A DNA stretch of 57,791 nt, taken from the IMG/VR virus record IMGVR_UViG_3300012676_000003, positions 1-57,791 of that record, one strand, 5' to 3'. The notes under the pieces are model-generated. The model did no database searches. It had not been told where the DNA came from and was given only the letters and a program-made list of their open reading frames with translations. The position numbers were made by a program, and so were the translations under genes. Shown in pieces: positions 711 to 57,712 of this stretch (the first letter of the stretch is position 1; each line of letters begins with the position of its first letter). The DNA is from a virus (taxonomy: Duplodnaviria; Caudoviricetes).

Positions 711-869
711 ATGAATGATGATCTGAAGTACACGCGAATTTGTGAGCAGTGCGGCACGAGGTTCAAAGTTAAACGGGATTGGCAGAGATTCTGCAAGCCG
801 CAATGTCGGGTAAAATACTTCTGGAAACACCACAAAGTAGTCAAAACAAGCGAGACCAAAACCACATGA
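711..869 (+). CDS. Small zinc-finger protein
   Basis: CEQC..FCKPQCR motif; ATG at 711 preferred; ATGA overlap with next gene. Confidence 0.7.
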   Translation: MNDDLKYTRICEQCGTRFKVKRDWQRFCKPQCRVKYFWKHHKVVKTSETKTT

Positions 870-2191
870 CAACCAAAACCATAGACGCAGAAATCGTTCA
901 ACCGCAGGCTTTAGCCGTGCGGGAAACTGGAGGCGCGCTTTCCTATGCCCTAGGCATCGATGAACTGCACCAAAACCTAGAGTTTGTGCGGCAGGTTATG
1001 TCCAGAGAGATGCGGGAGGGCCAAGACTACGGCAAGATTCCAGGCACTGGGGACAAGCCGACGTTGCTCCAACCCGGAGCACAAAAGCTATTGCTCACCT
1101 TCAATCTTACCGAGCAGGTCAAAAAGGAAGCTCTCCGCGAATACCCTAACCTGCACCGTGAGTACGAGTTCATAGTATGTGTCAAAGCCCAGAACGGCAA
1201 GGAATGGGACGGCGTAGGCACCTGCTCCACGCTAGAAGCCAAGTATCGGTACAGAAAAGGAGAAAGGCTCTGCCCGAAGTGCGGTAAACCTTCCATTATC
1301 CAAGGTAAAAAGGAGTTTGGCGGAGGCTGGATATGTTTCACCAAGAAAGGCGGTTGCGGCGAGAAGTTCGCCTTTGATGATACGTCAATCACTGGCCAGC
1401 ATGTCGGCAGGACTGAGCACGATAACCCGCCCGACTATTGGAATACGGTGCGCAAGATGGCGTTTAAGCGTGCCTTGGTCTCCGCTGCCATCAACGCGAC
1501 CAACACTTCGGAGCTGTGGACGCAAGACCTGGACGATACGGCACCCGCCGAAGCTCCAGAACCGAGCGTAGACGCGCCACCACCGCCACCAAAGCAAGCC
1601 ACGCCGAAGCCTAAGGCCGCGACAGACAAACCACCCGTGGCTACCGCTCAGACCCGCGCATGGATGATCTCCAAGCTGAACGCCGGGCCAGGATCACCGG
1701 ATAGGCAGGTCATCACCGAGTTTTTCGAGAAAGCTGCTGCAATCCTTCCGGGTAGCGAAATGCTGGAAGATATACCACTTGAATTCGTGCCCGTGAGTAA
1801 GGAGGAGATAGCCGCGCTACAGGAAGCAATCGCGCGGTTTGATCGGGGTGACTATGCCGAAATCCCCTACAAGCACAAAGTTGTCAATGAGACCCTGAAG
1901 GAACCAGAACAAGGCGAGCTACCCACTAAGCCTATCGAAGTACCGCGCGATGATGAACCACCAGCAGATGACGAACCATGGCGTTCGTTCCCGATGCCTT
2001 TTGGCAAGCAGGCGGGCACCGCGTTGGAGGATTTAGACCGCAAGTATCTGTTCGGGCTGTGGGCCAACTACGCCGTTGAGACTGAATACAACGGGAAGCC
2101 CAAGAAGCCCGAAACCATCGCCAAGGATCAGCTATTTCGCGAGATGCTGGATGCGGCGGGAGAACACTACAACTTCGAGAAAAAGGATTGA
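866..2191 (+). CDS. Putative single-strand annealing/recombination protein with inserted Zn ribbon and C-terminal MPFGK domain
   Basis: DYGKIPG..KPTLLQPGAQKL and NTVRKMAFKRALV motifs; CPKC..C..C insert; near an exonuclease gene. Confidence 0.6.
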   Translation: MTTKTIDAEIVQPQALAVRETGGALSYALGIDELHQNLEFVRQVMSREMREGQDYGKIPGTGDKPTLLQPGAQKLLLTFNLTEQVKKEALREYPNLHREYEFIVCVKAQNGKEWDGVGTCSTLEAKYRYRKGERLCPKCGKPSIIQGKKEFGGGWICFTKKGGCGEKFAFDDTSITGQHVGRTEHDNPPDYWNTVRKMAFKRALVSAAINATNTSELWTQDLDDTAPAEAPEPSVDAPPPPPKQATPKPKAATDKPPVATAQTRAWMISKLNAGPGSPDRQVITEFFEKAAAILPGSEMLEDIPLEFVPVSKEEIAALQEAIARFDRGDYAEIPYKHKVVNETLKEPEQGELPTKPIEVPRDDEPPADDEPWRSFPMPFGKQAGTALEDLDRKYLFGLWANYAVETEYNGKPKKPETIAKDQLFREMLDAAGEHYNFEKKD

Positions 2192-2192
2192 A

Positions 2193-2408
2193 ATGAGATT
2201 AGCTAAAGCTGTGTATTGTCCGGGTGTTGACACTTGGTATGTAAGGATAGGTCCGAGGCAAGGGGTTGATCCGATGTTCAAGCAACATAATGAAGCACAA
2301 GCCAAAATCGTAGCTAAGACAATCAACGCCACCGTCAACCGAGAACTAAAAATAAGGGGCTATGGGATCAAGCTAGCGAACACTATGGGCTTCGAGAAGA
2401 AAGATTAA
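2193..2408 (+). CDS. Hypothetical protein
   Basis: ATG directly after upstream stop; fills operon gap. Confidence 0.65.
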   Translation: MRLAKAVYCPGVDTWYVRIGPRQGVDPMFKQHNEAQAKIVAKTINATVNRELKIRGYGIKLANTMGFEKKD

Positions 2409-2413
2409 ACTGC

Positions 2414-2686
2414 ATGTATAACTATTCTGAACTCAGGCCACGAATCTTTACGGAGGAAGGTCAAAGAATGTTCCTAGCAATCCGCGACAAAACCCACCGA
2501 CTGCTAAAACTCGCTGGAGCGGTGCGCATGGAGGAAGCAATAAGCGGTTGCGGCCAGTCGGGTAGTTGTTCGTGGGATATGCTCGCTTGCGTGGACCGGC
2601 TTGTTGAATTAGGTGAAATCTGGGAAATCACCAACGGCGATGTGGCAGGTCAAGATCGTGTGTTCGTAAGTACTAAGGGGGATTGA
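2414..2686 (+). CDS. Hypothetical phage protein
   Basis: Tightly packed ORF in operon. Confidence 0.75.
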   Translation: MYNYSELRPRIFTEEGQRMFLAIRDKTHRLLKLAGAVRMEEAISGCGQSGSCSWDMLACVDRLVELGEIWEITNGDVAGQDRVFVSTKGD

Positions 2687-2919
2687 GCATGAAACTGAAA
2701 TACCGCGTTATTAAAAGGGAGGATCGGTTTATCGCACAGTGTCGTTATTGGTTCACTTGGTGGGTGTATTTAGAGCGTCCGTATTTTCCAGAAGTGAACA
2801 CGGAACCATATTTTTCTCATGCCACCATGGAGGGGGCCGTTAAGGCTATAGATAGCTACAAAAATCGAGCCGCAGTACGAACCACAAGAAAAGCATTCTA
2901 CTACACCGAAGATTATTAA
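2683..2919 (+). CDS. Hypothetical protein
   Basis: Coupled to upstream stop; start may be ATG 2689. Confidence 0.65.
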   Translation: MSMKLKYRVIKREDRFIAQCRYWFTWWVYLERPYFPEVNTEPYFSHATMEGAVKAIDSYKNRAAVRTTRKAFYYTEDY

Positions 2920-2921
2920 AC

Positions 2922-3611
2922 ATGACTACCACAATTACCAAAGGCACAGGCAGACCCAAGAAAGGGTATTTCAACTCCGTTGGAAAGCGCATTCCCGGGG
3001 TAACGACGATTTTGTCCCGCTTCAAGGAGTCGGGCGGACTCATCCAGTGGGCGTACAATTGCGGCAAGGAAGGCATCGACATCAACGAAGCTCGCGACAG
3101 TGCGGCAGACGCTGGCACATGCTGCCATGAGATGATCGATTGTGACCTGCACCGCAAAGAGTTTCCACGCTCAGACTGGAATAAGGACATCCTAGCCAAG
3201 GCTGATCACGCTTTCCTGGCGTTCTTGGAATGGAAGGAGCAAACCAAACTGGCGCTCGCAGCTTCAGAAGAGCCTATGGTATCTGAAAGGTATCAATTCG
3301 GTGGAACGTGCGACGCGGCTTTTATGTCAGGCACGTTACGACTTCTGGATTACAAAACTTCGAGCGGGATCTACACGGACCAGCTCATTCAGGTCGCCGG
3401 GGGATACTCGTTGCTATGGGACGAATATTATCCAGACAGACTGTTACACGGCATCGATATTCTCCGGATCAGCAAGCCAAACGCGCCTGATGACCCTGTA
3501 TCATTTGAGCATCGGCATTTCAGCGCTGAGATAATCCCGCTGTGCCAGCGTCAATTTCTACTGTTCAGGGAGGCATACGACATCGATAAACGATTGAAAG
3601 GATTGTTATGA
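2922..3611 (+). CDS. PD-(D/E)XK-family exonuclease
   Basis: PGVTTIL, GTxxH, E..GGTCD..LLDYKTS..Q..Y motifs. Confidence 0.85.
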   Translation: MTTTITKGTGRPKKGYFNSVGKRIPGVTTILSRFKESGGLIQWAYNCGKEGIDINEARDSAADAGTCCHEMIDCDLHRKEFPRSDWNKDILAKADHAFLAFLEWKEQTKLALAASEEPMVSERYQFGGTCDAAFMSGTLRLLDYKTSSGIYTDQLIQVAGGYSLLWDEYYPDRLLHGIDILRISKPNAPDDPVSFEHRHFSAEIIPLCQRQFLLFREAYDIDKRLKGLL

Positions 3612-4024
3612 CCTACACACCACGCTTCCACCTGAATCAAAAAGTATTCGCAGTGAGTTATGACCATGGACTTATCAAGGCATCGCCGTGTCGCGCGTGC
3701 GAAGGGGCCGGAACTGTCACGATAAATGGAGAACAATTTCACTGTCCTAAGTGCCGAGGAGGACAACGCCAAAGCTATCATACGCGCTGGTTTATCGTTG
3801 AGAAAAGCGAAATTGGTCAAGTCCGTATCGAGGCTACAGCGGAACAATATACGGATGGCTACGACAAAAAGCTGTTGGTGATTCAATACATGCTTCGCGC
3901 AACCGGGGTGGGTAGTGGAACAATCTGGGATGAGGAAGGACTATTCGCCACCGAAGAGGAAGCCAAAGCCTTTTGTAATGAACAGAATGCCGAAGTAGAA
4001 AAGCGTGAACTAATAGAAAAATGA
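3608..4024 (+). CDS. Hypothetical protein with CxxCxGxG zinc finger
   Basis: CRACEGAG and CPKCRGG. Confidence 0.75.
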   Translation: MTYTPRFHLNQKVFAVSYDHGLIKASPCRACEGAGTVTINGEQFHCPKCRGGQRQSYHTRWFIVEKSEIGQVRIEATAEQYTDGYDKKLLVIQYMLRATGVGSGTIWDEEGLFATEEEAKAFCNEQNAEVEKRELIEK

Positions 4025-4215
4025 ACCTAATCGACACCGCAACAAAGGAACGGCAGGAGCTGATCCGCCGTACGCAAGACTGGAAATCAACCGCCGAGAG
4101 CCTGGCCGCTCGGGTCATGCGGCTCCAGGAAGCCAATGAACGGGCCGTGGCGCTTCTGGAAAAGGGATCTACGTGGCGAGCTCGGCTGGAACTACTGGAA
4201 GCAACTAACGAATAA
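4021..4215 (+). CDS. Hypothetical coiled-coil protein
   Basis: Coupled ORF. Confidence 0.65.
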   Translation: MNLIDTATKERQELIRRTQDWKSTAESLAARVMRLQEANERAVALLEKGSTWRARLELLEATNE

Positions 4216-4216
4216 T

Positions 4217-4693
4217 ATGGACGAACCCGAAATCTATTTAGGCGATGGCGCTTATGCCAAATTCAACGGCTGGGCCATAGAACTCACCACTGAAAACGGA
4301 TACGAGACCACTAACACGATCTTTTTGGAACCAGAACTCCTCAAGAACTTGTTCGACTTTACTAGAGAGCACATTCCAGAAGCCACAACCACCGATGCAT
4401 TTATGAATCTAGGAGACCACATCATACTTGCAGCAGCAGACCGCTTGCACCGACAATACCCACAACAACGAACCGATCTCTGGATCAGCACCGAAGCTGA
4501 CGGCATCCGCACCTACACGGCATACCTTCCGGGGAATACTGTGAGGGAATCCGCCTTTGGAAATGCTGACGATCCCAACATCGCCGTGGACAGGCTTATT
4601 TCAGACGTTGGACCGCTGGATGACGAAACTCTGCGCCAGAAGCGTATCGCACAGCTTCAGCTAGAGCTTCAGAGCTTGACGAATGGGCAGTAA
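4217..4693 (+). CDS. Hypothetical protein (possibly two small genes fused)
   Basis: ATG 4217 follows upstream stop; internal Met (MNLGDH) after a TTT linker. Confidence 0.7.
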   Translation: MDEPEIYLGDGAYAKFNGWAIELTTENGYETTNTIFLEPELLKNLFDFTREHIPEATTTDAFMNLGDHIILAAADRLHRQYPQQRTDLWISTEADGIRTYTAYLPGNTVRESAFGNADDPNIAVDRLISDVGPLDDETLRQKRIAQLQLELQSLTNGQ

Positions 4694-4707
4694 CCCGCAT
4701 CGGGCAT

Positions 4708-4838
4708 GCTTTACGAGAGCGTGGACCAGGATGCGATCCCGAAACAATTTCGGCCCATCCTGGTCGAAAACACCCGTAGGTCGAGTCGCACTCCGCCTAC
4801 ACCGCCCCTGTTGCTCGTAACAATAGGGGCTTTTCTTT
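4708..4838 (+). ncRNA. Structured RNA motif, copy 1 (unknown family), ending in a terminator
   Basis: Four stems shared with 55257-55383 with compensatory changes; G-U pairs favour + strand. Confidence 0.7.
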
Positions 4839-5015
4839 GTACTGATTTCTCTCAAAACCACCCCGGATGTATGCCCTTTGTCCGGGTCAACAAAACTAAG
4901 GCTGTCCCATGTCGCCCGCGAGTTCACGCGAGGTTAATGCCAGAGGCAGACAGGTTGGCGGCGACTAACAAATAGCTCACCGGGGTTGCTCCCTTATTCA
5001 ACTGACGGAAGTTGA

Positions 5016-5046
5016 TCCCCCGTAACCCGATTCCGGTTACGGGGGA
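5016..5046. other. Perfect 12-bp hairpin at the end of the late operon
   Basis: TCCCCCGTAACC/GGTTACGGGGGA; no clear downstream U tract. Confidence 0.6.
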
Positions 5047-5066
5047 AAGAGGGGGTTCTGAGGTAG

Positions 5067-5261
5067 TTAGGGCTTCTCTACATGTATGCTTTTGATGGCG
5101 GGCAGGAGTCCGAACACGTTCAGAAGCCATAAAACCACCACCACCAGGACCACGATGTTGATGATCTTCTTTATCTTCGGGTCCATCGGGATGTACGTGT
5201 TCACCAGCCAGAGGAGCACTCCGACTACGATCAGGGCGATTACGATAGTGACTAAGCTCAT
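5067..5261 (-). CDS. Small two-TM membrane protein (Thivi_2564-like)
   Basis: LIVVGVLLWLVNTYIPMDPKIKKIINIVV..LWLL pattern. Confidence 0.8.
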   Translation of the reverse strand: MSLVTIVIALIVVGVLLWLVNTYIPMDPKIKKIINIVVLVVVVLWLLNVFGLLPAIKSIHVEKP

Positions 5262-47711: not shown

Positions 47712-48350
47712 TTAATCCAATGGACACTTTCCTAGGTCGCGAAGAATTATTCTTTTTGCTGAAGCTAATTTGTTAGCGTCAACAGCAACCGGCTGATATA
47801 GCCCAACAATCCACCACCTTTCACCCTTCCAAGCCTTGGGATTATGGGTTCCGTGCAACGCGGTCTTAGTGCAGGGCTGAAACACGCCGGATATTTCTTC
47901 AACCATCCCCACCTTGCGTTGATGTCCAGTACCTCCATTTGCCGGAAAACCGTGCATATTGGAGCGCCAAAACGCAGGCACAACTCCAGTTTCAACCGGA
48001 ACGGAATTCAACAACGCGGTAAGATAGTGATCATCCAAATTACCGGAACCGAAACCGTCACCGTAACCGTAACCGTCACCGTAACCGTCACCGTAACCGT
48101 AACCGTCACCGTCACCGTAACCGTCACCGGAATCGGAACCGTCGGAACCGGAACCGGAACCGAAACCGTCACCGTCACCGTAACCGTCACCGGAACCGTC
48201 ACCGTCACCGTAACCGTCACCGGAACCGTCACCGTAACCGTAACCGTCACCGTCACCGTAACCGTAACCGGAACCGTCACCGTCACCGTAACCGTCACCG
48301 GAATCGGAACCGTCGGAACCGGAACCGGACTTATAGATGGTCAGCTCCAT
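47712..48350 (-). CDS. Gly-Asp-Tyr-Ser repeat protein
   Basis: (GD/GY/GS)n tract; follows the DUF6948-like gene. Confidence 0.8.
   Translation of the reverse strand: MELTIYKSGSGSDGSDSGDGYGDGDGSGYGYGDGDGYGYGDGSGDGYGDGDGSGDGYGDGDGFGSGSGSDGSDSGDGYGDGDGYGYGDGYGDGYGYGDGFGSGNLDDHYLTALLNSVPVETGVVPAFWRSNMHGFPANGGTGHQRKVGMVEEISGVFQPCTKTALHGTHNPKAWKGERWWIVGLYQPVAVDANKLASAKRIILRDLGKCPLD
48043..48328. repeat. Hexamer tandem repeat (ACCGTC/ACCGTA/ACCGGA), coding
   Basis: Directly visible; GSGSDGSDSGDGYGDGDG block occurs twice. Confidence 0.95.
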
Positions 48351-48625
48351 ATTTCTTTCTCCCAATTTGCGGCAGCTTCTTCAGTTGTTTCCATTACCGC
48401 AGTTACATCGCGCACGATCATTTTCTGCACGCTCGGCCCGATGCGACATCCAGGTCCTGGACCACGAGTCGCCAGACCGCAAACACCCTTCATGTCAGAG
48501 GTCCAATACACAGCCATTTTTGCTTTAGACAACTCAATGGTTGGCCCGTCCGACGGCACACCGTAACCGAAAAATACTCCCTGGTGAGCCGTTGTTACAA
48601 TCAGTGGTTTTACGTTGTTTTCCAT
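48341..48625 (-). CDS. DUF6948-like protein
   Basis: IV.T...GVFFG..L..A....YW......LA..GP. Confidence 0.75.
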   Translation of the reverse strand: MENNVKPLIVTTAHQGVFFGYGVPSDGPTIELSKAKMAVYWTSDMKGVCGLATRGPGPGCRIGPSVQKMIVRDVTAVMETTEEAAANWEKEIWS

Positions 48626-49157: not shown

Positions 49158-49456
49158 CGCGCTCGCAGTGGCAATCCAAGTTGCGCTCGTTGCCGAAGGG
49201 TTTGACCTTGAAGCAGGTCGCGCGTCGTCTGCGCAAGCCTTATCAGCTAGCGGCTCGCTGGTGCAAGGTGTTCGGATATCGGAACCGGATTGACCGCGCG
49301 TGGACGGCCCAGAGACTCCGAGAATTCCGACGAGCGCCTTGGAGTCGCGTGCCGTGGAACATGGCTAATGTGGAAATCGCTAGGAGCTATGGGGTTTCAC
49401 GCGAGATTGTGCGGCGCAGGCGCAAGGAATTTACAAAGGCAGGCAATGGATCTTAA
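49154..49456 (+). CDS. Basic double-HTH-like DNA-binding protein
   Basis: TLKQVARRL; NVEIARSYGVSREIV. Confidence 0.7.
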   Translation: MTRSQWQSKLRSLPKGLTLKQVARRLRKPYQLAARWCKVFGYRNRIDRAWTAQRLREFRRAPWSRVPWNMANVEIARSYGVSREIVRRRRKEFTKAGNGS

Positions 49457-49919
49457 TGACATCTACAAAAAGGGCTACGAACTCTGTCCAGACGGAGTGC
49501 TCAGGAAACCTTCGAAAGCGCAGTGCCTGCTCTCCAACCATCCAAAAGCTGTCGTGCAACCTAAGCCTGCTAGAAAACGTATCCGTCAGGATTCCAAACC
49601 TCTTATGAACAAGCTAGAGACAGAGTTCTTCCACTGGATCAAGGATCAATATCCGAACTACCCACCCGTACGCCCACAAGCAAAGACCTTCCGGCTAGCT
49701 AACGGTCTCCGCTATACACCAGATTTCACCTGCTCCATCTGGCCGGATGAAAGTGAGGAAGGTCCAACGCGAGAGACGGCATGGGAAATCAAGGGTAAAC
49801 ACATTTGGGATGATGCCATTTGCAAACTGAAGGTGGCCGCGACCGCATTCCCTGAAGTGCGCTGGCTCTTTTGTTGGAAGATCGATGGCAAATGGGTCAT
49901 GCAGGAAATCAAACCGTGA
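49446..49919 (+). CDS. PD-(D/E)XK endonuclease (DUF1064-like)
   Basis: MNKLE..F; YTPDF; EIKG; KLK. Confidence 0.75.
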   Translation: MDLNDIYKKGYELCPDGVLRKPSKAQCLLSNHPKAVVQPKPARKRIRQDSKPLMNKLETEFFHWIKDQYPNYPPVRPQAKTFRLANGLRYTPDFTCSIWPDESEEGPTRETAWEIKGKHIWDDAICKLKVAATAFPEVRWLFCWKIDGKWVMQEIKP

Positions 49920-49925
49920 GACTTT

Positions 49926-50888
49926 ATGGAAGAAACAACCAACATTTCATGGTGTGATAGCACGTGGAACCCGTGGCGCGGGTGCGACAAGGTGAACTCC
50001 GATGCGATTTGGAATGAACCGTTTAAGTGGAACCGAAAGCCGTGGGTGTGTGATGTGTGTGATAAGCCATCAGCACCGTTCTTGGTTGAACCAGCGCAGT
50101 GTGAGTGTGGGGTTGTGGCCATGTTCCACCGTCGCCGCGTGTTCTCGCTTTCGTTGGGTGATTGGCTTGACTCGAAGGTGCCGATTGAATGGCTGGCGAG
50201 AATGCTCGACACCATTCGCCAATGTCAGGACATCGACTTCCTGCTCGTGTCGAAGCGGACGGAGTTGTGGCGAGCAAGGATGAAAGCCGTCTTGGATAGC
50301 AGCCAACTGGATGCGCAGCCGCAGGATTGGCAATTCATTGGCTGGCTCAAAGATTGGTTGAACAATAAGCCGCCATCTAACGTTTGGATCATCGCCAGCG
50401 CCGAAAACCAGGAGATGTTGGATAAGCGCATCCCTGAGTTGTTAAGGATTCCGGCAGTGGTGCGCGGCCTGAGCTGTGAGCCGTTGTTGGGGCCGCTGGT
50501 ATTTGATTACGCACTGGGAGGCAATTCGACTAGCGACTTCTCTTCAAAGTTCAGCACGGCTGGAATTCACTGGATCATCGCAGGCGGTGAGAGCGGGAAA
50601 GGTGCTCGCCCATGCAACGTGGAATGGATACGCTCCATCGTGAACCAGTGCAAAGCGGCTGGCGTTCCGTGCTTTGTGAAGCAGTTGGGGACGAATAGTT
50701 GTCAGGACTTGAGTGCGGTTATCCCCGAAGCCAGCGATGAAGATGCACAGAACGATCCTTGTGCCGCCGCCCAATGGGACATTCACAGGCACCAAGTACC
50801 ACTTCATCTCAAACACTCCAAAGGCGGAGACCCTGCCGAATGGCCTAAGGATTTGAGTGTGCAGCAGTTCCCTAAGGTGGCGCGATGA
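49926..50888 (+). CDS. DUF5131 (Gp37/Gp68)-family protein with truncated Cys motif
   Basis: T.ISWCD.TWNPW.GC.KV; LS.EPLLG; WII.GGESG..ARP; FVKQLG. Confidence 0.85.
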   Translation: MEETTNISWCDSTWNPWRGCDKVNSDAIWNEPFKWNRKPWVCDVCDKPSAPFLVEPAQCECGVVAMFHRRRVFSLSLGDWLDSKVPIEWLARMLDTIRQCQDIDFLLVSKRTELWRARMKAVLDSSQLDAQPQDWQFIGWLKDWLNNKPPSNVWIIASAENQEMLDKRIPELLRIPAVVRGLSCEPLLGPLVFDYALGGNSTSDFSSKFSTAGIHWIIAGGESGKGARPCNVEWIRSIVNQCKAAGVPCFVKQLGTNSCQDLSAVIPEASDEDAQNDPCAAAQWDIHRHQVPLHLKHSKGGDPAEWPKDLSVQQFPKVAR

Positions 50889-51085
50889 CACCAGAAGCTA
50901 AACCACACATCATAGAAACGAAATTCACGATCAGGGATAAGGTCATGGTCACGGAGATCCAACGCCCAGCCGTGATTGACCTAATCCAGATTGATGCCAG
51001 TGGCGTCTCGTATTGCATCGTGCTTTGGGATAACGGCGAGCGCAAAGAGGTATGGGTCTACGAAGATGAAATCCAAAAGCGATGA
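50885..51085 (+). CDS. Hypothetical protein
   Basis: Coupled ORF. Confidence 0.7.
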   Translation: MTPEAKPHIIETKFTIRDKVMVTEIQRPAVIDLIQIDASGVSYCIVLWDNGERKEVWVYEDEIQKR

Positions 51086-51240
51086 GTAAATCCACGCCAA
51101 AGCTTTGCCTTCGATGCAATAAAAACCCGCTACAGAAATCACGGCACTACTGCGACAAGTGCGTGCGTGAGACTGCCGAACTTTACTGGACAAAATATGG
51201 GTTCTCCCATGAACACCTTCGAGATTCGCATCATCATTAG
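51082..51240 (+). CDS. 52-aa zinc-finger protein (absent from ORF track)
   Basis: MSKSTPKLCLRC..YCDKC; ATGA coupling. Confidence 0.65.
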   Translation: MSKSTPKLCLRCNKNPLQKSRHYCDKCVRETAELYWTKYGFSHEHLRDSHHH

Positions 51241-51535
51241 GAGAGCCGAAGCTATCGGGCTAATTCGGTTCCCAGATCCAAATCACCGAAAGGCTAGGCT
51301 CCGTAAAGGAGCAGGGCTATGCGATTGCGGCAGGGAAGCAACCGTTAGGATGCACAATGGGCATTGGCAATGCGACCGCTGCGAAGAACTGAACGCGCTC
51401 GTGGTCCACCAGGAAACGTTGTCGCACCCGGAATATGACCCGGACTACGAAGTCGAACGATACGAACGCCGTCAATGGATGCAGATGCTAAACGGAAAAA
51501 AGAATCGTAGGAAACGGAAAGTACTTAGAACATGA
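51209..51535 (+). CDS. Zinc-finger hypothetical protein
   Basis: CDCG..CDRC. Confidence 0.65.
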   Translation: MNTFEIRIIIRRAEAIGLIRFPDPNHRKARLRKGAGLCDCGREATVRMHNGHWQCDRCEELNALVVHQETLSHPEYDPDYEVERYERRQWMQMLNGKKNRRKRKVLRT

Positions 51536-51768
51536 CCACTATAAAAACCACAGACACAGACACTATCGACAGATTATTCTTGGAGTTATCACAATTCACA
51601 AAGGCGACAACCTACAAGGAGATATGCCTGGAAGCCGAGGTTAAGCGGTTGCGGGAGTTACTTCGATATGTCGCATATCTCCGAATGCCGCTAGGGGACA
51701 AGGTTATCGAAATGTTAGACCCTGACCGCGCAAAAGAGATTCGCGAAGCCTTGAGGGTAACGCCGTGA
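51532..51768 (+). CDS. Hypothetical protein
   Basis: Coupled ORF; EAEVKRLR. Confidence 0.7.
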   Translation: MTTIKTTDTDTIDRLFLELSQFTKATTYKEICLEAEVKRLRELLRYVAYLRMPLGDKVIEMLDPDRAKEIREALRVTP

Positions 51769-51992
51769 AACTCACTGCAACATGGATCCTCGCCATTGCT
51801 CTGATTTCAGGTTGTGAGCAAAGTCAGGAACAGGGTATTCCGAAGCCATAAACCAGCGTCGAGGAGGTTCAATACGACGGCTGTATCTACCTGGAATTCT
51901 ACACCTACCAAAGGTACTCGGTGATTACCCATAAAGGTAACTGCCCAAACCCAATCCACCCAAAATCTGATGTACTGGAGGTGAAACCGTGA
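51765..51992 (+). pseudogene. Phage lipoprotein interrupted by in-frame TAA (51849-51851)
   Basis: MKLTATWILAIALISG-C lipobox; same frame resumes with YDGCIY..THKGNCPNPIH and couples to next gene. Confidence 0.75.
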
Positions 51993-52210
51993 GTGATTCA
52001 TTCGAGGCTAAAAATTTGCAAGAACTCGACAAGCTGCGACGCGAAAACGCTGAGTTGAGACGGGCGCTTCTTAAATGGAGGGCTTATTTTCAGGCCGACA
52101 CTCCACGAGAAGCCATCGAACATGAAGAAGCAGCAGAACAATTCACTGAGGCATGGTACGCAATGGAGGAAGCCTTAGGGAATCTCAAACAAAAGAAACT
52201 TAACCGTTGA
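51989..52210 (+). CDS. Hypothetical protein
   Basis: GGAGGTG RBS and GTGA coupling. Confidence 0.7.
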   Translation: MSDSFEAKNLQELDKLRRENAELRRALLKWRAYFQADTPREAIEHEEAAEQFTEAWYAMEEALGNLKQKKLNR

Positions 52211-52235
52211 CACGGGGACCGTATTTTGGTAGTTT
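52207..52235 (+). promoter_or_regulatory. sigma70-type promoter of the replication gene
   Basis: TTGACA-N17-TAGTTT. Confidence 0.65.
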
Positions 52236-52242
52236 CCAATCA

Positions 52243-52356
52243 CCATGTTCGTATCGCGTTCACAGAGTTTTTTACGCTGCTGCTTGTCGGCGTCTCCAAT
52301 TCCTCAATTGGTGATTACGAGCATGGCAAGCGGACAGGCGGCAGCGTTAAGAACTC
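52243..52356 (+). promoter_or_regulatory. Structured 5' leader of the replication gene
   Basis: 24-bp stem 52265-52288/52333-52356; 52243-52253 complementary to loop 52316-52326. Confidence 0.7.
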
Positions 52357-52383
52357 CAGAACCTTTGTTGTTACTCACCAATT

Positions 52384-53220
52384 ATGCCTCTGAGGTTTTT
52401 GAGGCCCGGAATTCGTACCAGCGAACGATGGAACTCCGTTAGCCGTCCCTGCCATCAGCTTTACATCGGCCTATTGACGCTGGTTGATGACTTCGGAAGA
52501 TACGAGGCTAGAGCTAGCGTTTTATGGGGGGAATGCTTCGCTGTTTGGAACTCACTCCATCCAGACGATCCCGTAACCATGGAAAATGTTCACGCGTATC
52601 TTTCAGAACTTAAGTCGGCAGACCTTCTAAGTGTTTACTCCGTAAATGGTAAACAATACTTACAATTGCAAACGTGGGCCGAGAAGCCTAGGTCTGTAAG
52701 CAAATACCCAAATCCAATTGATGCGGCTTGTGAACAGGTGAAAACAAGCGTTAACAGATGTACGCCTCCTTCGCCTTCGCCTTCGCCTTCGCCTTCGCCT
52801 TCGGAGGAGGGAACGCCTTCGCCAGCACCGCCGCAAGTTGCGTACAAACCGCCAGTAGCCAAACCTGAACCGTTAATGACCAATCGACCTACCGTCCAGT
52901 TCCAACCTGTTAAGCGCGGTCTGTATCCCCGAGAATACAAGGACATGCTCCAAGTAGCTGACCGTGAGATTGAGCGGATTAAGCATCATCCTGATTCCTA
53001 CGAGAAGGAGTTAACCAAGGAAGCCTCCGATTTAATCAAGCTCCTGGAGCAGGAGAACAAGCCTAAGCGAGCTGTGGAAGTGAAGGCTAGGTCAGACGCT
53101 TGGGCACCAACCGTCATAAAGCCACAAGCGGCTACGAACCTGCGGGCGTGGAAAGACCGGAAGGCGGAGATACGAGCTGCCATGAACGGGGTTGTTGAGG
53201 CTGAAAGTGTCGGGAAATGA
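52384..53220 (+). CDS. Putative replication initiator/replisome organiser
   Basis: MP.R.LR.GI..S..LL..VDDFGR N-terminus and (PS)n linker. Confidence 0.7.
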   Translation: MPLRFLRPGIRTSERWNSVSRPCHQLYIGLLTLVDDFGRYEARASVLWGECFAVWNSLHPDDPVTMENVHAYLSELKSADLLSVYSVNGKQYLQLQTWAEKPRSVSKYPNPIDAACEQVKTSVNRCTPPSPSPSPSPSPSEEGTPSPAPPQVAYKPPVAKPEPLMTNRPTVQFQPVKRGLYPREYKDMLQVADREIERIKHHPDSYEKELTKEASDLIKLLEQENKPKRAVEVKARSDAWAPTVIKPQAATNLRAWKDRKAEIRAAMNGVVEAESVGK

Positions 53221-53232
53221 AAGGATCGATTC

Positions 53233-53523
53233 ATGGAGCTACAAAATATGGATTCAGAACCAACCACCACAACGACATTTCGAACATTCCACATGTGCCA
53301 GTCTGTTGAAGGTCCATTGCTTAATTGGACAACTAGGGACTGGAAACAGGCCACCAAATGGATGACGCGAGACGATGGTTCCAAGATGACCGCAATGGAG
53401 CTTAAGGCTGCATTCGTGGAGTTATTAGGCGAGGGGAAGAAGGTTATTCCGCTCGGCAAACCATGCGAAGGATTCAGCTACGAAACGGGATGTCCGGGTC
53501 ATCCGGCAGAAGATGAGGGATGA
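53233..53523 (+). CDS. Hypothetical protein
   Basis: C-terminal C..F.Y.TGCPGH. Confidence 0.75.
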   Translation: MELQNMDSEPTTTTTFRTFHMCQSVEGPLLNWTTRDWKQATKWMTRDDGSKMTAMELKAAFVELLGEGKKVIPLGKPCEGFSYETGCPGHPAEDEG

Positions 53524-53614
53524 TTTTATGCCACGCCAACCAGAACAAACTACGAGCGGGCCTTTGGTTCGTCCCGGCCCCAGTTGGCGCGGCGTTTAAG
53601 AGAAAGAAAACCAA

Positions 53615-53947
53615 ATGACACCAGAACGACAACGAATAGCCATTGCCACGGCGATAAAGAATTGGGAGATTCACCACGGAGGAAAGTATTGCGCAATTAA
53701 AAACTGCAAAAATCCAACCTTAAACGAAAGGCTCTTTGATCCACTTGAAGACTTGAACGCCTGTCACGAGATGGAGAAGGCGCTAACTGAGTCGCAACAG
53801 ATACGATATCGTCAGCTACTTGCTTGCAATTCGGACGGCAGGAGAGCGGTGTTTGCGACAGCCGAAGCCGCCATGTGCCACGCCACTGCTGCGCAGCGTA
53901 AAGATGCGTTCTTGCGCACCCTCAACCTTTGGGAGGAAACGAAATGA
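53615..53947 (+). CDS. Hypothetical phage protein
   Basis: DLNA.HE.EK.L..ATA.QR..AFLR. Confidence 0.75.
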   Translation: MTPERQRIAIATAIKNWEIHHGGKYCAIKNCKNPTLNERLFDPLEDLNACHEMEKALTESQQIRYRQLLACNSDGRRAVFATAEAAMCHATAAQRKDAFLRTLNLWEETK

Positions 53948-54357
53948 AAACAGCCGAAGAGTGGATGAATGAAATGAAGGTATGGAGTGTCGCAGCCGTC
54001 ATGTGTGTGCAACTTGACGCCCAGGACCAGCTACATGAGCGGGCCGAGAATGCCGAGGCGGCTCTAAACGAGCAGCGGAGTCGCGCCGAAAAAGCCGAAG
54101 CCGAGGTTAAGCGGTTGCGGAAGATACTTGGAGACATGGAAAGCGAGTATGCCAGTGCACTTGCTCAGTGTTCCGACCGCGAGACTGAGGTGAGGCGGTT
54201 GCGGGAGGCGGTTTCCAAGGCACGCGACTTCATTGCTAAAGTAAACGACGACTATCCCCGCGTGAGGCGCGACGATTACGGGCTTTACACCGGATCGGAC
54301 CCTGAGCGCGACGAACTCTTGGACGTTTTGGAAGAAGCCTTGGAGGTGAAACCGTGA
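53944..54357 (+). CDS. Coiled-coil hypothetical protein
   Basis: RAEKAEAEVKRLR; ATGA coupling. Confidence 0.7.
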   Translation: MKTAEEWMNEMKVWSVAAVMCVQLDAQDQLHERAENAEAALNEQRSRAEKAEAEVKRLRKILGDMESEYASALAQCSDRETEVRRLREAVSKARDFIAKVNDDYPRVRRDDYGLYTGSDPERDELLDVLEEALEVKP

Positions 54358-54611
54358 CTATCAACGCACTCTATAAGCAGTTGTCGGAACTGGTGAAACA
54401 AGGTCACGGACGGAAAACGGTGTGTGTCGACAAAGGCACGTTCACGCACCCACTGGAGGACGATGGGGAGCTCATTTTGGAAGTGATGGCCGCGCAGATT
54501 GCGCGGGTTGATATGCTTGACGAGGATGGGAATTATAAGGAGTTGGCGGACGGGACAATATCAAAGCGGACATTCTTGGTGCTTAGAGGAGAATCGGAGG
54601 TGAAGCCGTGA
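54354..54611 (+). CDS. Hypothetical protein
   Basis: RBS and GTGA coupling. Confidence 0.7.
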   Translation: MTINALYKQLSELVKQGHGRKTVCVDKGTFTHPLEDDGELILEVMAAQIARVDMLDEDGNYKELADGTISKRTFLVLRGESEVKP

Positions 54612-54841
54612 TCGACCCCAGCCTATCCTTTGAGTCTCTTCCTCCCCGACTAAAGGATTTAACACTGAAGGAATTGCATGGACTCAAATTGGTGGACTTG
54701 GACAAAGCCTACGCCCATCTGCGCGAGGCCGCATCTGACATCAGGTGGGTGAATCACGAAAACACCGATTTCAAGATTAGGGTGGCCATGCTCATGGATT
54801 CGCTCAACGACATCCAAAAACTCAAAGAGATGATGATGTGA
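54608..54841 (+). CDS. Hypothetical protein
   Basis: RBS and GTGA coupling. Confidence 0.7.
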   Translation: MIDPSLSFESLPPRLKDLTLKELHGLKLVDLDKAYAHLREAASDIRWVNHENTDFKIRVAMLMDSLNDIQKLKEMMM

Positions 54842-55134
54842 GCACGAACGGCACCATCCACAAAACCATGGTGAAGATTCATGAATGTTACGATGAATCA
54901 AGGCCCATGCCCGAAGTGCTTCGAGACATAGCGTCCGAATCAATATTGTTGGACGATGACCCAAGACTTCCAGAACTAATCGCTATCCGTGAAACCCTAT
55001 TGGAGAACGACGAATGCCTTGATCGCTTGTGCGAGCTTAATCCCAATCACAGTGAAGCTTACCATAGACAGTGGGAATACGCTGAATCCGAACTCGACCA
55101 GCGCGTCGCCAAACTTAACATCAAATCCCTGTGA
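54838..55134 (+). CDS. Hypothetical protein
   Basis: GTGA coupling. Confidence 0.7.
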   Translation: MSTNGTIHKTMVKIHECYDESRPMPEVLRDIASESILLDDDPRLPELIAIRETLLENDECLDRLCELNPNHSEAYHRQWEYAESELDQRVAKLNIKSL

Positions 55135-55199
55135 CCATCCTCTTCATCATCTTCCTGGCCATGGTCGCTATGCTCGCCTTCTGGTCGTGGGACGGATGA
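55131..55199 (+). CDS. 22-aa hydrophobic peptide MTILFIIFLAMVAMLAFWSWDG
   Basis: GTGA-coupled; single TM; absent from ORF track. Confidence 0.5.
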   Translation: MTILFIIFLAMVAMLAFWSWDG

Positions 55200-55216: not shown

Positions 55217-55246
55217 TTGACAACCCGCCAGCGCCTGTGCTAAACA
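55217..55246 (+). promoter_or_regulatory. sigma70-type promoter upstream of RNA motif copy 2
   Basis: TTGACA-N18-TAAACA with extended -10 TG. Confidence 0.6.
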
Positions 55247-55256
55247 TTGCCCATGC

Positions 55257-55383
55257 GCTTTAGTAGAGCTGACAGGGATAGTCTGAAAAAGATTTCGACA
55301 TCCCTGTCGAAAACACCCGAAGGTCGAGGTAGCTCCTCCGCCTTCACCTCCCACGTTGCTACTAACAGCGTGGGCCATTTTCT
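55257..55383 (+). ncRNA. Structured RNA motif, copy 2
   Basis: Homologous to 4708-4838 with covarying stems. Confidence 0.7.
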
Positions 55384-56089
55384 ACTGCGGTCGGCAGGTC
55401 GTATCTGGGAAAGCACCTTCACGAGCTTCCAAAACTTGGTTAGACTCCAAGGATCCGCAACCACTTACCCGATTTATGATTGAACCCTCATGTCATGGGT
55501 TCCGCGCTTGGGTCGTACAGCCTTCCCCTGAAGGGTCTGCGATGGCGCGTTATAAATTAGACCGCGCAAACAAGTTGGAGGCTCTGACTTACGTCGCCTC
55601 CTTTATCTGCTGCCTGTCGTGGGGACTATCCCTTGCCGGACGCCTCCTCAACTACGCGCTTAGGGAAACGCACTTGCCCCAGGTTATCGCTGGCCGTGGA
55701 ACACCCGTAGCTGATCCTCACGGATCGTCCTGAAGCCTAACTAGCAACTGGTTACAGAGCAACTGCACCAGAGAGACTGACAACTCTTACAGCTTCAGTG
55801 CCCTAACCGAGGGTGTACCCTGCCCATATTGAACCATGCCCACGTAATCTACTCCCCAGGCGAATATCACATCACGCGACTTCCTCAAAAATTCATAACT
55901 TATTTTTTTCACGACACACTCTCCTTTCACAATCCGGAAACCTTACACAGAACTTCCGGAAGTAGCCTTCACGAAGTTCCGAAATATGCTCTGTCGTGCT
56001 ACAGGGAGGTATAGACGCGCATGGCACAGCGCAAGGGGGGGTGCCGGCGCGACACCGTGGGGACGGTCCAGCCCAAGGAATAAGCATGC

Positions 56090-56551
56090 TTACCCTGGTG
56101 ACTGTGCGCCAGGGTCTGAAGGTGAGGGCGTAGGCGTGACCGGTGGATCGGGTGCAGGTTCAGGAGCCGCCGACGGTGGCGCGTTCTGTCCTCCTGGCAC
56201 TACCATCGTGCTCTTCACCGGCCCGCGTGTGGTAGGGCGTAGGTTGCCGGGTTTGCTCCTGCCACTGTGCGCGAACTCTTGATCACTGAGCCTTTGTGAT
56301 GCTGTCGCGAGCCAGCTAACCCTTTGACCATCAGCCTTGCGCGGGTCTTTGAGTTCGAGTTCTATTGCATCGTCAAGGAGATTGAGTTGTTTGCGCACAC
56401 GCAATAAACGTCTGACTTGAAAGTCGTCCGCCTGTTCTGAGGTGTTGGCGGTTTTGAGTTTCCGCTTAAGTTCAGCCTTCAGCTTAGTGGTTTGACCGCC
56501 GATAGCACCGAAGGCTTTCGCCTGTTCAGTGGTCCAAAGGGCTTTTGGCAT
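56090..56551 (-). CDS. Hypothetical protein, possible terminase small subunit
   Basis: Basic GxxGG N-terminus, helical core, Pro-rich tail; function is a guess. Confidence 0.4.
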   Translation of the reverse strand: MPKALWTTEQAKAFGAIGGQTTKLKAELKRKLKTANTSEQADDFQVRRLLRVRKQLNLLDDAIELELKDPRKADGQRVSWLATASQRLSDQEFAHSGRSKPGNLRPTTRGPVKSTMVVPGGQNAPPSAAPEPAPDPPVTPTPSPSDPGAQSPG

Positions 56552-56590
56552 GCTGAGGGCAATAAACTCCTATGGGAGCATGTAGGCAAG

Positions 56591-56618
56591 AAAAAACCCC
56601 GTAGGGTTGACTACGGGG
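56591..56618 (-). terminator. Intrinsic terminator of the leftward early operon
   Basis: CCCCGTAG/CTACGGGG stem followed by T6 on minus strand. Confidence 0.8.
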
Positions 56619-56649
56619 CTTGATGCCGGGAGGCGTTTGTGGGGGTCTG

Positions 56650-56868
56650 CTATGGTTCGTAAAGGTACGTGTCTCCGTAGGACACCCAGCCATTTTTGTG
56701 GCACCAGTGGATTAGGTCTAACGAAGTATCGAACCTCGGAGAGAGGGCGGCTGTTGGGTCTTTGTGCGTGGAGCCGGAGTAAAGCCAGCAGCCTATGAGT
56801 TTATCCCTTGGGTCAATGCATTGGATTGTGGGGCGAGCGACTAAAAACCGATTGATTGTTATTTTCAT
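56650..56868 (-). CDS. Hypothetical protein
   Basis: Coupled ORF. Confidence 0.6.
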   Translation of the reverse strand: MKITINRFLVARPTIQCIDPRDKLIGCWLYSGSTHKDPTAALSPRFDTSLDLIHWCHKNGWVSYGDTYLYEP

Positions 56869-57182
56869 ATCTCAGTAGCCTTTGAGATTGCAGCCTTGAT
56901 CACGTATAGCGTGCCGTCTAGCAGTGTGCGGTTAGCGCTTCCGGGCGCGTGTTGCAGGCGTTCGATTGTGGCTTGAGCCGTTTCTAGGGCATGCAGAAGT
57001 TCAGGGGCAGCAGCGATTAATCGCGCGTTGGCTTCGCTTTCAATCAGTAGCTCATCATTGCGTTTACCATCTGCCAATGTGTGGACAACGGCCAAGCGCA
57101 TATCTCGTTTAACCGAGTAGATTCCTGATTCTGCTAGCATCCACGATCCTGGCGTATGCTGTTTGTCTGTTGGTGTAGTCAT
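56865..57182 (-). CDS. Conserved phage protein (HTPGxW..ANARLIAAAPELL family)
   Basis: Both motifs present. Confidence 0.8.
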   Translation of the reverse strand: MTTPTDKQHTPGSWMLAESGIYSVKRDMRLAVVHTLADGKRNDELLIESEANARLIAAAPELLHALETAQATIERLQHAPGSANRTLLDGTLYVIKAAISKATEI

Positions 57183-57184
57183 AA

Positions 57185-57406
57185 TTAATCTTCGTTGTAG
57201 GTTGCGTATGCGGGAATTTCAAAGCGCTTGCAAACAGCTTCGTAGGCTGATTTGGCAGCGTTGAAATTTTCGTCTATGCGGGCCAAGTCATGGGGGAAAC
57301 TTTCGCCCTTTGATATTGCCGACCGCGCATAGAAACCGACTGCCGCTCTAGCTGACACAAGCTGATCGGCCATCGATACTAGCTCCCGTTGTTCTGGTGT
57401 TTCCAA
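57185..57406 (-). CDS. Hypothetical protein
   Basis: Packed ORF, TTG start. Confidence 0.6.
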   Translation of the reverse strand: METPEQRELVSMADQLVSARAAVGFYARSAISKGESFPHDLARIDENFNAAKSAYEAVCKRFEIPAYATYNED

Positions 57407-57636: not shown

Positions 57637-57712
57637 ATGTGAAACGCACGGCCTCTAATGCCGCGAAAAGTTCGGGTATTGTACGCGGCTTAGCGCTAAC
57701 CTTGCTTGGCAT
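57626..57712 (-). CDS. 28-aa peptide MPSKVSAKPRTIPELFAALEAVRFTYEK
   Basis: AAAGGA RBS; bridges neighbouring ORFs across the circular junction. Confidence 0.45.
   Translation of the reverse strand: MPSKVSAKPRTIPELFAALEAVRFTYEK

What the first reader, a model, noticed from the sequence alone, without database searches (positions are those of the whole stretch)
4708..4838. Unrecognised ~125-nt structured RNA present twice, with covariation (copy 1)
Seen: 4708-4838 and 55257-55383 share, in order: P1 GCTTT-N3-AGAGC; P2 GACCAGGAT/ATCCTGGTC vs GACAGGGAT/ATCCCTGTC (compensatory) capped by GAAA..TTTC; an invariant linker GAAAACACCC; P3 GTAGGTCGAG/CTCCGCCTAC vs GAAGGTCGAG/CTCCGCCTTC (T-A to A-T swap, conserved U-G pair and C-C mismatch); ACC; P4 CCCTGTTG/CAATAGGG vs CCACGTTG/CAGCGTGG (compensatory) followed by a T-rich tail. 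G-U pairs point to the + strand. Overlapping ORFs use different frames in the two copies, so conservation is not at protein level. Both copies sit at the end of a + operon facing a convergent operon. I cannot match it to a known family. Inference: phage sRNA, protein sponge, or (anti)termination element.
Basis: seen in the sequence. Interest (0 to 1): 0.85.

Follow-up and report, generated by a model that had tools for sequence, protein, structure and literature searches.

The report
Twin structured RNAs ending phage operons
An uncultured freshwater-sediment phage carries two diverged copies of a roughly 130-base, four-hairpin RNA that ends two of its operons and matches no catalogued RNA family; its shape has clearly been preserved by selection, but its job is still unknown.

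Summary
The window is a complete circular phage genome of 57,668 bp plus a 123-bp end repeat. It holds exactly two copies of the element, both on the + strand: 4705-4840 and 55254-55385. They are 71% identical, and similarity stops at the element's edges.

- **Structure is conserved.** 38 of 41 comparable base pairs are kept, against 25.3 +/- 2.6 expected from neutral change. Six pairs changed on both sides and still pair.
- **P4 is a terminator.** In both copies P4 is one of only three strong intrinsic-terminator-like sites in the genome.
- **New contact.** The 7-nt terminator loop is perfectly complementary to the P1 loop plus its two closing pairs in both copies. The only differences in those loops are two compensatory swaps. 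This indicates a kissing contact or a switching helix.
- **No known family.** Rfam 15 gave no match.
- **No relatives found.** Nothing turned up in IMG/VR, JGI metagenome or GTDB pattern scans, in about 135 related loci, or in 60 whole viral records. The scan's earlier findings list no look-alike on other DNA.

Best reading (0.4): sibling stable small RNAs made by termination, folded into a closed shape, acting through the invariant linker and P3 junction. Rivals are a conditional terminator gating antisense read-through, and a passive 3'-end protector. Function is untested, and the family so far has two members in one phage.

The parts
4705..4840 (+). Copy 1, whole element (P1-P2-linker-P3-ACC-P4-tail)
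   Evidence: fold; covariance models (151.9 bits with R2)
4705..4723 (+). Copy 1 P1 hairpin (8 bp, 3-nt loop; holds U-G pairs)
4711..4717 (+). Copy 1: 7 nt (P1 loop plus two closing pairs) perfectly complementary to the P4 loop
   Evidence: -6.8 kcal/mol
4724..4765 (+). Copy 1 P2 long hairpin with internal loop
   Evidence: 2 compensatory pairs
4766..4775 (+). Copy 1 invariant 10-nt single-stranded linker
   Evidence: mean unpaired probability 0.71
4776..4800 (+). Copy 1 P3 hairpin with conserved U-G pair and C-C mismatch
   Evidence: 2 compensatory pairs
4804..4830 (+). Copy 1 P4: intrinsic terminator hairpin (10 bp, 6 G-C, 7-nt loop 4814-4820), T-rich tail 4831-4840
55254..55385 (+). Copy 2, whole element
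   Evidence: (70.5 bits from the copy-1-only model)
55257..55269 (+). Copy 2 P1 hairpin (5 bp); 55260-55266 is complementary to the P4 loop
55271..55308 (+). Copy 2 P2 hairpin
55309..55318 (+). Copy 2 invariant linker
   Evidence: mean unpaired probability 0.93
55319..55345 (+). Copy 2 P3 hairpin
55350..55374 (+). Copy 2 P4 terminator hairpin (9 bp, 6 G-C, loop 55359-55365), tail 55375-55385
55217..55246 (+). Possible own promoter of copy 2: a perfect -35 hexamer, an 18-nt spacer ending in TG-N, and a weak -10. Inference only.

Best explanation
The two copies are sibling genes for a stable, compactly folded small RNA of about 130 nt. The motif is new and unnamed.

Proposed mechanism:
1. Each RNA is made on the + strand as the last thing transcribed in one of two rightward operons. 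Copy 1 follows the exonuclease-containing operon 779-4693. Copy 2 follows the operon 49290-55199 that holds the replication initiator.
2. P4 plus its U-rich tail stops RNA polymerase and sets the 3' end.
3. P1-P3 remain attached. The terminator loop then pairs with the P1 loop, tying the first and last hairpins together and closing the molecule.
4. The invariant parts are presented as the working surface for a partner. These parts are the 10-nt linker between P2 and P3, the P3 internal loop with its U-G pair and C-C mismatch, and ACC. The partner could be a protein or a complementary RNA of the host or phage.

Shown: existence, strand, conserved helices, the terminator, the position, and the loop-loop complementarity.
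Inferred: that the RNA accumulates, that the loops pair within one molecule, and that the junction is the business end.
For: - Exactly two copies, with flanks unrelated.
- 38 of 41 pairs kept against 25.3 expected. 6 compensatory pairs spread over P2, P3 and P4.
- The + strand folds better than the - strand. Conserved U-G pairs are present.
- The two P4 hairpins are two of only three of the 49 terminator-like sites in the genome that have 6 G-C pairs.
- Loop-loop helix: 7 of 7 Watson-Crick pairs in both copies, 2 of them compensatory. Cognate energies are -6.8 and -5.4 kcal/mol; cross-copy pairings score +0.9. The chance of such a 7-mer complement anywhere upstream is about 0.004 per copy.
- The linker is identical in both copies and predicted unpaired, 0.71 and 0.93.
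- No protein-level conservation.
- Copy 2 sits 54 nt after the previous stop codon and has a perfect -35 hexamer upstream. Copy 1 starts 11 nt after a stop, so it would be a 3'-end product.
Against: - No expression data.
- Only two sequences, both from one genome.
- 10 of 10 identity in the linker is weak on its own at about 71-77% overall identity.
- No complementary target stands out in the phage. One-mismatch sites number 8 against 4.2 expected, with 11 of 100 shuffles as high. The best duplexes are at background level.
- No RNA chaperone or RNA-binding protein was recognised among 56 different phage proteins scanned against PHROGs and/or Pfam.
- The promoter scan lists no + promoter for either copy.
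- The closest available relatives lack the element.
Confidence: 0.4

Rival explanations
1. Conditional terminator (riboswitch-like or protein-responsive attenuator). The helix between the P1 region and the P4 loop, plus 3-4 nt of the P4 5' arm, closes a junction of P2, linker and P3. When a ligand or protein stabilises that junction, terminator formation is hindered. Polymerase then reads on as antisense into the converging operon: the late/structural genes after copy 1, and the 55893-57636 genes after copy 2.
For: - The conservation pattern is aptamer-like: joining strands are invariant and stems covary.
- The long-range helix has 2 compensatory pairs.
- It is in the minimum-energy fold of nascent transcripts ending at the P4 loop in both copies.
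- Both copies face convergent operons across ORF-poor gaps.
- There is precedent for a riboswitch gating an antisense RNA from a convergent promoter: PMC2566862 (abstract start seen in the listing).
Against: - The core of the helix uses only loop bases, so it need not exclude P4.
- The G-C-rich lower 6 bp of P4, next to the U tract, stay free.
- The P1 plus P4 state is favoured by 16.7 and 13.4 kcal/mol.
- The window of transcript lengths in which the alternative helix wins is 3 nt in copy 1 and 11 nt in copy 2.
- There is no convincing + strand gene downstream.
- No Rfam riboswitch matches.
Confidence: 0.2
2. Passive cis-acting 3'-end module. It would be a strong terminator preceded by stable hairpins that protect the two operon transcripts from 3' exonucleases and insulate converging transcription. 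This resembles terminal hairpins left by RNase III processing or retroregulatory 3' structures. It would have no trans function.
For: - Position at the 3' end of two operons at convergent junctions.
- Very stable folds of -63.5 and -58.7 kcal/mol.
- Strong terminators.
- Copy 1 has no promoter of its own.
Against: - Simple protection does not need an invariant single-stranded linker, a conserved mismatch in P3, or a covarying loop-loop contact.
- Other + strand gene blocks in this genome, such as those ending near 41136 and 48566, lack the element.
Confidence: 0.22
3. Self-assembling RNA. The complementary P1 and P4 loops pair between molecules rather than within one, building dimers, rings or chains of one RNA species. 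This would resemble the kissing contacts of phage packaging RNAs.
For: - Loops are fully complementary within each copy but not across copies.
- Covariation cannot distinguish pairing within a molecule from pairing between molecules.
- Phage pRNAs multimerise by kissing loops: PMC4201828 (abstract start seen in the listing).
Against: - No match to the Rfam pRNA model or any other.
- Intramolecular pairing is entropically favoured.
- No packaging-motor link is known here.
Confidence: 0.05
4. DNA-level element. The repeats would act as module-boundary recombination sequences or as single-stranded DNA hairpins (replication or priming signals) flanking the 7.1-kb segment between them.
For: - Direct repeats lie 7,125 bp apart on the circle, bracketing one block of genes.
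- Copy 2 lies about 2 kb downstream of a replication-initiator gene and next to an ORF-poor 500-700 nt stretch.
Against: - The longest exact shared run is 14 nt.
- U-G (G-T) pairs are conserved only on the + strand, and the - strand folds worse.
- The 3' hairpin plus T tract is a transcription signal.
Confidence: 0.04
5. New self-cleaving ribozyme, or a decaying neutral duplicate with no function.
For: A multi-helix junction with invariant joining strands and a tertiary loop contact is also how small ribozymes look.
Against: - No known ribozyme model matches, even at E up to 10.
- Neutral decay is contradicted by the retained pairing.
Confidence: 0.04

Closest known systems
Sibling (paralogous) bacterial small RNAs such as GlmY/GlmZ (PMC4737144; abstract start seen in the listing)
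   Same: Two homologous structured RNAs of roughly similar size in one genome, ending in terminators. Some segments are conserved and the stems have diverged.
   Different: No sequence or model match. This one is phage-encoded, sits at operon 3' ends, and has a covarying contact between the terminator loop and the first hairpin. Its partner is unknown.
Prophage small RNAs made at gene or operon 3' ends or at phage terminators (IpeX, StxS, AgvB/AsxR anti-sRNAs; recalled, not checked in a call)
   Same: Phage-borne, terminator-ended RNAs that can arise from the tail of a longer transcript. Some occur in several copies.
   Different: Those belong to enterobacterial prophages and have known targets. 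No Rfam model of any phage sRNA matches here. This RNA is more elaborately folded.
Lambda sib/tI retroregulation and T7 RNase III processing hairpins (recalled)
   Same: Structured RNA at the 3' end of phage early transcripts that decides the fate of the upstream message. In T7 it is repeated several times in one genome.
   Different: Those are single long hairpins recognised by RNase III. Here there are four helices, an invariant single strand and a loop-loop contact.
Riboswitch-gated antisense transcription (S-box downstream of the ubiG operon in Clostridium acetobutylicum, PMC2566862; abstract start seen in the listing)
   Same: A structured RNA plus terminator placed convergent to an operon, so that read-through would make antisense RNA.
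   Different: No known aptamer matches here. The antiterminator logic is weak, because loop bases rather than the terminator stem are involved. No ligand is known.
phi29-type packaging RNA (PMC4201828; abstract start seen in the listing)
   Same: A phage RNA of similar size with two mutually complementary loops that covary.
   Different: The Rfam pRNA model does not match. Here the complement is 7 nt and one partner is a terminator loop. There are two non-cross-pairing species per genome, and no link to packaging is shown.
HK022 put RNAs (recalled)
   Same: Two paralogous structured RNA copies in one phage genome that act on transcription termination.
   Different: put sites lie just downstream of the early promoters and act on downstream terminators. 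These copies lie at operon ends and contain the terminator themselves.

Membership tests
Any Rfam 15 family (4227 models) | Score at or above the family's gathering threshold | tested here: not met
   0 matches over the whole window. Permissive scans gave only PreQ1 at 12.1 bits (threshold 39, outside the element) and Corio-PBP at 15.3 bits (threshold 63.5, - strand). There were 0 matches in 55380-56150.
Intrinsic (Rho-independent) terminator | G-C-rich hairpin directly followed by a U-rich tract on the transcribed strand | tested here: met
   P4 is 4804-4830 (10 bp, 6 G-C) and 55350-55374 (9 bp, 6 G-C). Only three of the 49 listed sites in the genome have 6 G-C pairs. In copy 2 the tail starts 3 nt after the stem.
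tRNA / tmRNA | Cloverleaf or tmRNA architecture recognised by ARAGORN | tested here: not met
   0 genes in the window
Trans-acting base-pairing sRNA | Discrete transcript with its own 5' end (promoter or processing site) | tested here: inconclusive
   The promoter scan lists none on the + strand. A perfect -35 hexamer with a weak -10 is visible upstream of copy 2 only. No RNA data are available.
Trans-acting base-pairing sRNA | Accessible conserved seed with a complementary target | tested here: inconclusive
   The linker is unpaired at 0.71 and 0.93. No phage target rises above background. The host genome is unknown.
Transcription-terminating riboswitch / attenuator | Mutually exclusive antiterminator and terminator pairings | tested here: inconclusive
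   An alternative helix exists with 2 compensatory pairs, but it uses the P4 loop plus only 3-4 stem bases.
Transcription-terminating riboswitch / attenuator | Regulated gene downstream on the same strand | tested here: not met
   Only junk-like + ORFs lie downstream. The next convincing genes are on the - strand. The 125-aa + ORF had 0 PHROG hits.
phi29-type pRNA | Match to the family model; complementary loops acting between molecules | tested here: not met
   No Rfam hit. Loop complementarity is present, but whether it acts between molecules cannot be told here.
Candidate structured RNAs of viruses (DNAVirus_X set, PMC10690425) | Match to one of the 8495 published IMG/VR models | not testable with these tools
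   The models are in supplements, which are closed. Passages read say a motif needed matches in at least 3 unique IMG/VR regions.

The most novel reading that the evidence does not exclude
The element is a new kind of 3'-end switch. A ligand- or protein-sensing four-helix RNA would have a closing helix borrowed from the loop of its own terminator. Placed at both convergent junctions of the phage genome, it would decide whether early transcription stops or runs on as antisense into the converging late and regulatory operons. That would amount to an RNA-level early/late timer.
Probability: 0.12. Interest if true: 0.75.

Novelty: new member of a known kind. Interest (0 to 1): 0.5.

Why it matters
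Phage non-coding RNAs are badly under-described, and almost all known ones come from a few cultured model phages. Here an uncultured sediment phage, with almost no recognisable proteins, keeps two copies of an RNA under clear structural selection. The features include a covarying long-range contact between a terminator loop and the first hairpin.

- If it is a stable regulator, it is a handle on how this unknown phage manipulates gene expression.
- If the loop contact tunes termination, it would be an unusual way to couple RNA folding to transcription at convergent operon junctions.

It also provides a ready covariance model (R2) for mining further metagenomes.

Tried and rejected
**Pattern scans for the conserved core**
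- Three IMG/VR patterns gave 0, 14 and 8 stretches.
- The JGI metagenome scan gave 11 stretches and the GTDB genome scan gave 9.
- All were judged chance. The 14 stretches were inspected by eye only. The others were checked with the covariance models, best 9 to 12 bits.

**Synteny-based search**
- IMG/VR loci were fetched around relatives of three neighbouring proteins. The replication initiator gave 8 loci, the DUF5131 protein 15 loci, and the exonuclease 77 loci at up to 72% identity.
- The 185-aa and 470-aa neighbours gave no relatives.
- No model match was better than 14.5 bits, nor with filters off on 7 loci.
- 60 whole viral records were searched. None had a match apart from one noise hit at 6.7 bits. 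The positive control on the phage's own genome worked.
- L061 12673-12803 shares a short linker-like string. I rejected it: 11.3 bits, fold z-score -1.0, and it lies inside a - strand gene.
- L060 and L061 share only the exonuclease with this phage.

**Other collections**
- blastn and tblastn against cultured phages and plasmids: no match.
- 401 Pseudomonadota genomes sampled for the exonuclease as a route to a host or prophage: none found in those searched.
- Earlier findings of this scan: no look-alike.

**Sequencing runs**
- No RNA holder is listed.
- Four freshwater-sediment DNA runs hold the locus. Their contigs show no differing letter within copy 1, so they offer no natural variation to test covariation.

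**Targets and weak matches**
- Target search for the linker in the phage: background only. The one-mismatch site at 56590-56599 is just the tail of another terminator.
- Protein-coding explanation rejected.
- The weak PreQ1 and Corio-PBP matches were rejected as chance.

**Limits**
The DNA around 631 exonuclease homologues could therefore not be fetched, including one at 97% identity on a 19-kb contig. That is the most promising untried route.
- Supplements of PMC10690425 could not be seen and may list this motif.

Full report
**What the window is**

The window is one complete IMG/VR virus record. Bases 1-123 repeat exactly at 57669-57791, so the genome is a circle, or a permuted linear molecule, of 57,668 bp. 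An independent Logan contig of 53,007 nt carries both copies 7,125 nt apart. That is the distance expected across the window ends, although this run may be the record's own source. The locus is held by four freshwater-sediment DNA runs.

The phage is very poorly characterised. 56 different proteins were scanned against PHROGs and/or Pfam. The only named functions were an exonuclease (2922-3611), a replication initiator (52384-53220), a protease and a LuxR-type HTH protein. A further few matched only domains or families without a function. No RNA chaperone, reverse transcriptase or RNA-guided nuclease was recognised. Cultured-phage and plasmid collections gave no match.

**The observation**

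My bounds are 4705-4840 and 55254-55385.

- A covariance model built from copy 1 alone finds copy 2 at 70.5 bits (E 5.8e-15) and nothing else.
- With all filters off, the two-copy model still finds only these two full-length matches. The rest are reverse-strand echoes of the same hairpins or noise of 12 bits or less.
- Similarity starts at the first base of P1 and ends in the T-rich tail. The flanks are unrelated, and translated similarity is scattered over several frame combinations in short pieces, so it is not protein conservation.

**Is the structure under selection?**

On the structure-guided alignment, 129 columns hold letters in both copies and 37 differ (71% identity). 38 of 41 comparable pairs are still standard pairs in copy 2. 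Placing 37 random substitutions on copy 1 leaves 25.3 +/- 2.6 pairs, with a maximum of 37 in 100,000 trials.

Six pairs changed on both sides and stayed paired, two each in P2, P3 and P4. Three more changed on one side through G-U. The three broken pairs sit at helix ends. Sliding the 3' partners by 1-3 columns drops pairing from 96.5% to 40-47%.

There are three caveats. Only two sequences exist. The alignment is fitted to the model. The tool's shuffle control bottoms out near 1 in 64 with two rows.

The + strand folds to -63.5 and -58.7 kcal/mol (z -5.2 and -6.9). The - strand reaches z -3.2 and -3.7 and loses P1 in copy 1. Conserved U-G pairs in P1 and P3 also point to the + strand.

**Anatomy**

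P1 and P2 abut without a spacer. An identical 10-nt strand follows, predicted unpaired at 0.71 and 0.93. Next come P3, with an invariant inner part including a U-G pair and a C-C mismatch, then ACC, then P4.

P4 plus its T-rich tail is a textbook intrinsic terminator. Of the 49 terminator-like sites listed over the genome, only three have 6 G-C pairs: the two P4 hairpins and one - strand site at 56594-56621. The total number of terminator-like sites does not exceed shuffles.

**A new feature**

When the 3' arm of P4 is withheld, both copies fold so that the P1 region pairs with the P4 loop. The 7-nt P4 loop (4814-4820; 55359-55365) is the perfect Watson-Crick complement of the P1 triloop plus its two weak closing pairs (4711-4717; 55260-55266).

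- All 7 pairs hold in both copies.
- The only two differences in the P1 loop and the only two in the P4 loop are exactly compensatory: C-G to G-C, and G-C to U-A.
- A shuffled upstream region contains such a complement with probability of about 0.004 per copy.
- Cognate loop pairs score -6.8 and -5.4 kcal/mol, while cross-copy pairs score +0.9.

This is either a kissing contact that ties the first and last hairpins together, or a competing helix.

In pseudoknot-free folding, the helix wins only while the transcript ends between 4820 and 4822 (copy 1) or between 55363 and 55373 (copy 2). The full-length P1 plus P4 state is favoured by 16.7 and 13.4 kcal/mol. The core of the helix uses loop bases only. 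The G-C-rich lower stem of P4, next to the U tract, stays free. I therefore regard a kissing contact as more likely than a true antiterminator. That is an inference.

**Context**

My ORF map comes from a simple longest-ORF caller, not a trained gene finder.

- Copy 1 starts 11 nt after the stop of the last + gene of the block 779-4693. About 225 nt of ORF-poor, structured DNA follow, and then the - strand block begins with a small membrane protein gene (5067-5261).
- Copy 2 lies 54 nt after a 22-codon hydrophobic ORF that ends the block 49290-55199. A 500-700 nt stretch without a convincing gene follows, before the - strand genes 55893-57636.
- Other + strand gene blocks, such as those ending near 41136 and 48566, have no copy.
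- The promoter scan lists no + promoter before either copy. I count it as possible, not shown.

**Relatives**

None was found.

- Rfam: 0 matches at gathering thresholds, and only chance-level hits at E up to 10.
- Core-motif pattern scans of IMG/VR, JGI metagenome contigs and GTDB genomes returned only chance stretches.
- 100 IMG/VR loci around relatives of three neighbouring proteins, and 60 whole viral records, contain no match. The control on the phage's own genome worked.
- The best exonuclease relatives in IMG/VR (72% and 66%) share only that one gene with this phage, so they are not true kin in this region.
- Much closer exonuclease homologues exist in the large protein collection: 631 hits, the best at 97% on a 19-kb contig.
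- The four runs holding the phage show no variant inside copy 1.
- A published catalogue of about 8,500 IMG/VR structured-RNA candidates required at least 3 distinct regions per motif (passages of PMC10690425 read). Its models are in supplements I could not open, so I cannot say whether this motif is listed.

**What it most likely is**

The firm part is this: a genuine, selected, + strand structured RNA of a family not in Rfam, present as two diverged paralogues. Each ends in a strong terminator, and each has a covarying contact between the terminator loop and the 5' hairpin.

The function is inferred. I favour sibling stable small RNAs that act through the invariant linker and P3 junction on an unknown partner (0.4). 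The reasons are that terminator-ended, multi-hairpin RNAs of this size are usually that, that the two copies keep their own matched loops, and that one copy may have its own promoter.

The main rivals are:
- a conditional terminator gating antisense read-through into the converging operons (0.2; precedent PMC2566862, listing only);
- a passive 3'-end protector or insulator (0.22).

Minor rivals are intermolecular self-assembly as in pRNA (PMC4201828, listing only), a DNA-level role, and a ribozyme or neutral relic.

No complementary target for the linker stands out in the phage. The host is unknown: the exonuclease was not found in 401 sampled Pseudomonadota genomes.

**Verdict**

- The element is a new family within a known kind of element.
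- Interest is moderate. The structural evidence is unusually clean for two sequences, and the terminator-loop contact is unusual. Against that, the family is so far confined to one uncultured phage and has no functional data.

Noticed in passing
window 4849-4905: About 10 nt after copy 1's tail, the + strand holds a string resembling the invariant linker, followed by a hairpin. On the - strand the same hairpin, with a following U-rich run, looks like the terminator of the converging late operon. Its complement is among the better, but still background-level, duplex partners of the linker at -14.7 kcal/mol.
   Followed up: partly
window 55386-56090: A 500-700 nt stretch next to copy 2 has no convincing gene. 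Its ORFs look like junk. It has no Rfam hit and only short repeats plus one 13-nt inverted repeat at 55950-55979. It lies about 2 kb downstream of the replication-initiator gene, so it could hold an origin or another non-coding RNA.
   Followed up: partly
window 5016-5046: A near-perfect 15-nt inverted repeat lies 20 nt beyond the stop of the - strand membrane-protein gene 5067-5261. It is a strong hairpin without a U tract. The whole 4841-5066 spacer folds better than shuffles on both strands (z -3.2 and -3.7).
   Followed up: partly
window 4706 and 55253: Both copies begin with the same five bases, whose ATG opens ORFs of 89 and 76 codons running through the element. The ORFs share a frame only up to P2 and then diverge, and several other frames are open too. 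If copy 2 is transcribed from the proposed promoter, the ATG would sit at the very 5' end, making it leaderless. I regard coding as unlikely.
   Followed up: partly
window 55131-55199: A 22-codon, strongly hydrophobic ORF lies directly upstream of copy 2.
   Followed up: no
window 2922-3611 and loci L060, L061: The exonuclease gene is widespread: 631 homologues, many at 60-78% identity. The two closest IMG/VR phages share no other gene of this neighbourhood. This is a clear case of single-gene mosaicism.
   Followed up: partly
window 48012-48341: A tandem array with a 12-nt (and 18-nt) period, in 14 overlapping register copies, lies inside the + gene 47844-48566. That gene had no Pfam hit.
   Followed up: no
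window 56594-56621 (- strand): This is the third strong terminator-like hairpin of the genome (11 bp, 6 G-C, T tract). It lies inside the small - strand gene block between 56551 and 56650.
   Followed up: no
window 55293-55312 and 4751-4770: The first bases of the linker, together with the last bases of P2, repeat the 5' strand of the P2 apical stem. The apical 3' strand could therefore pair with either one: 7 bp in copy 2 and 5 bp in copy 1 (and sequence). This is a possible second alternative pairing, with no covariation to support it.
   Followed up: no
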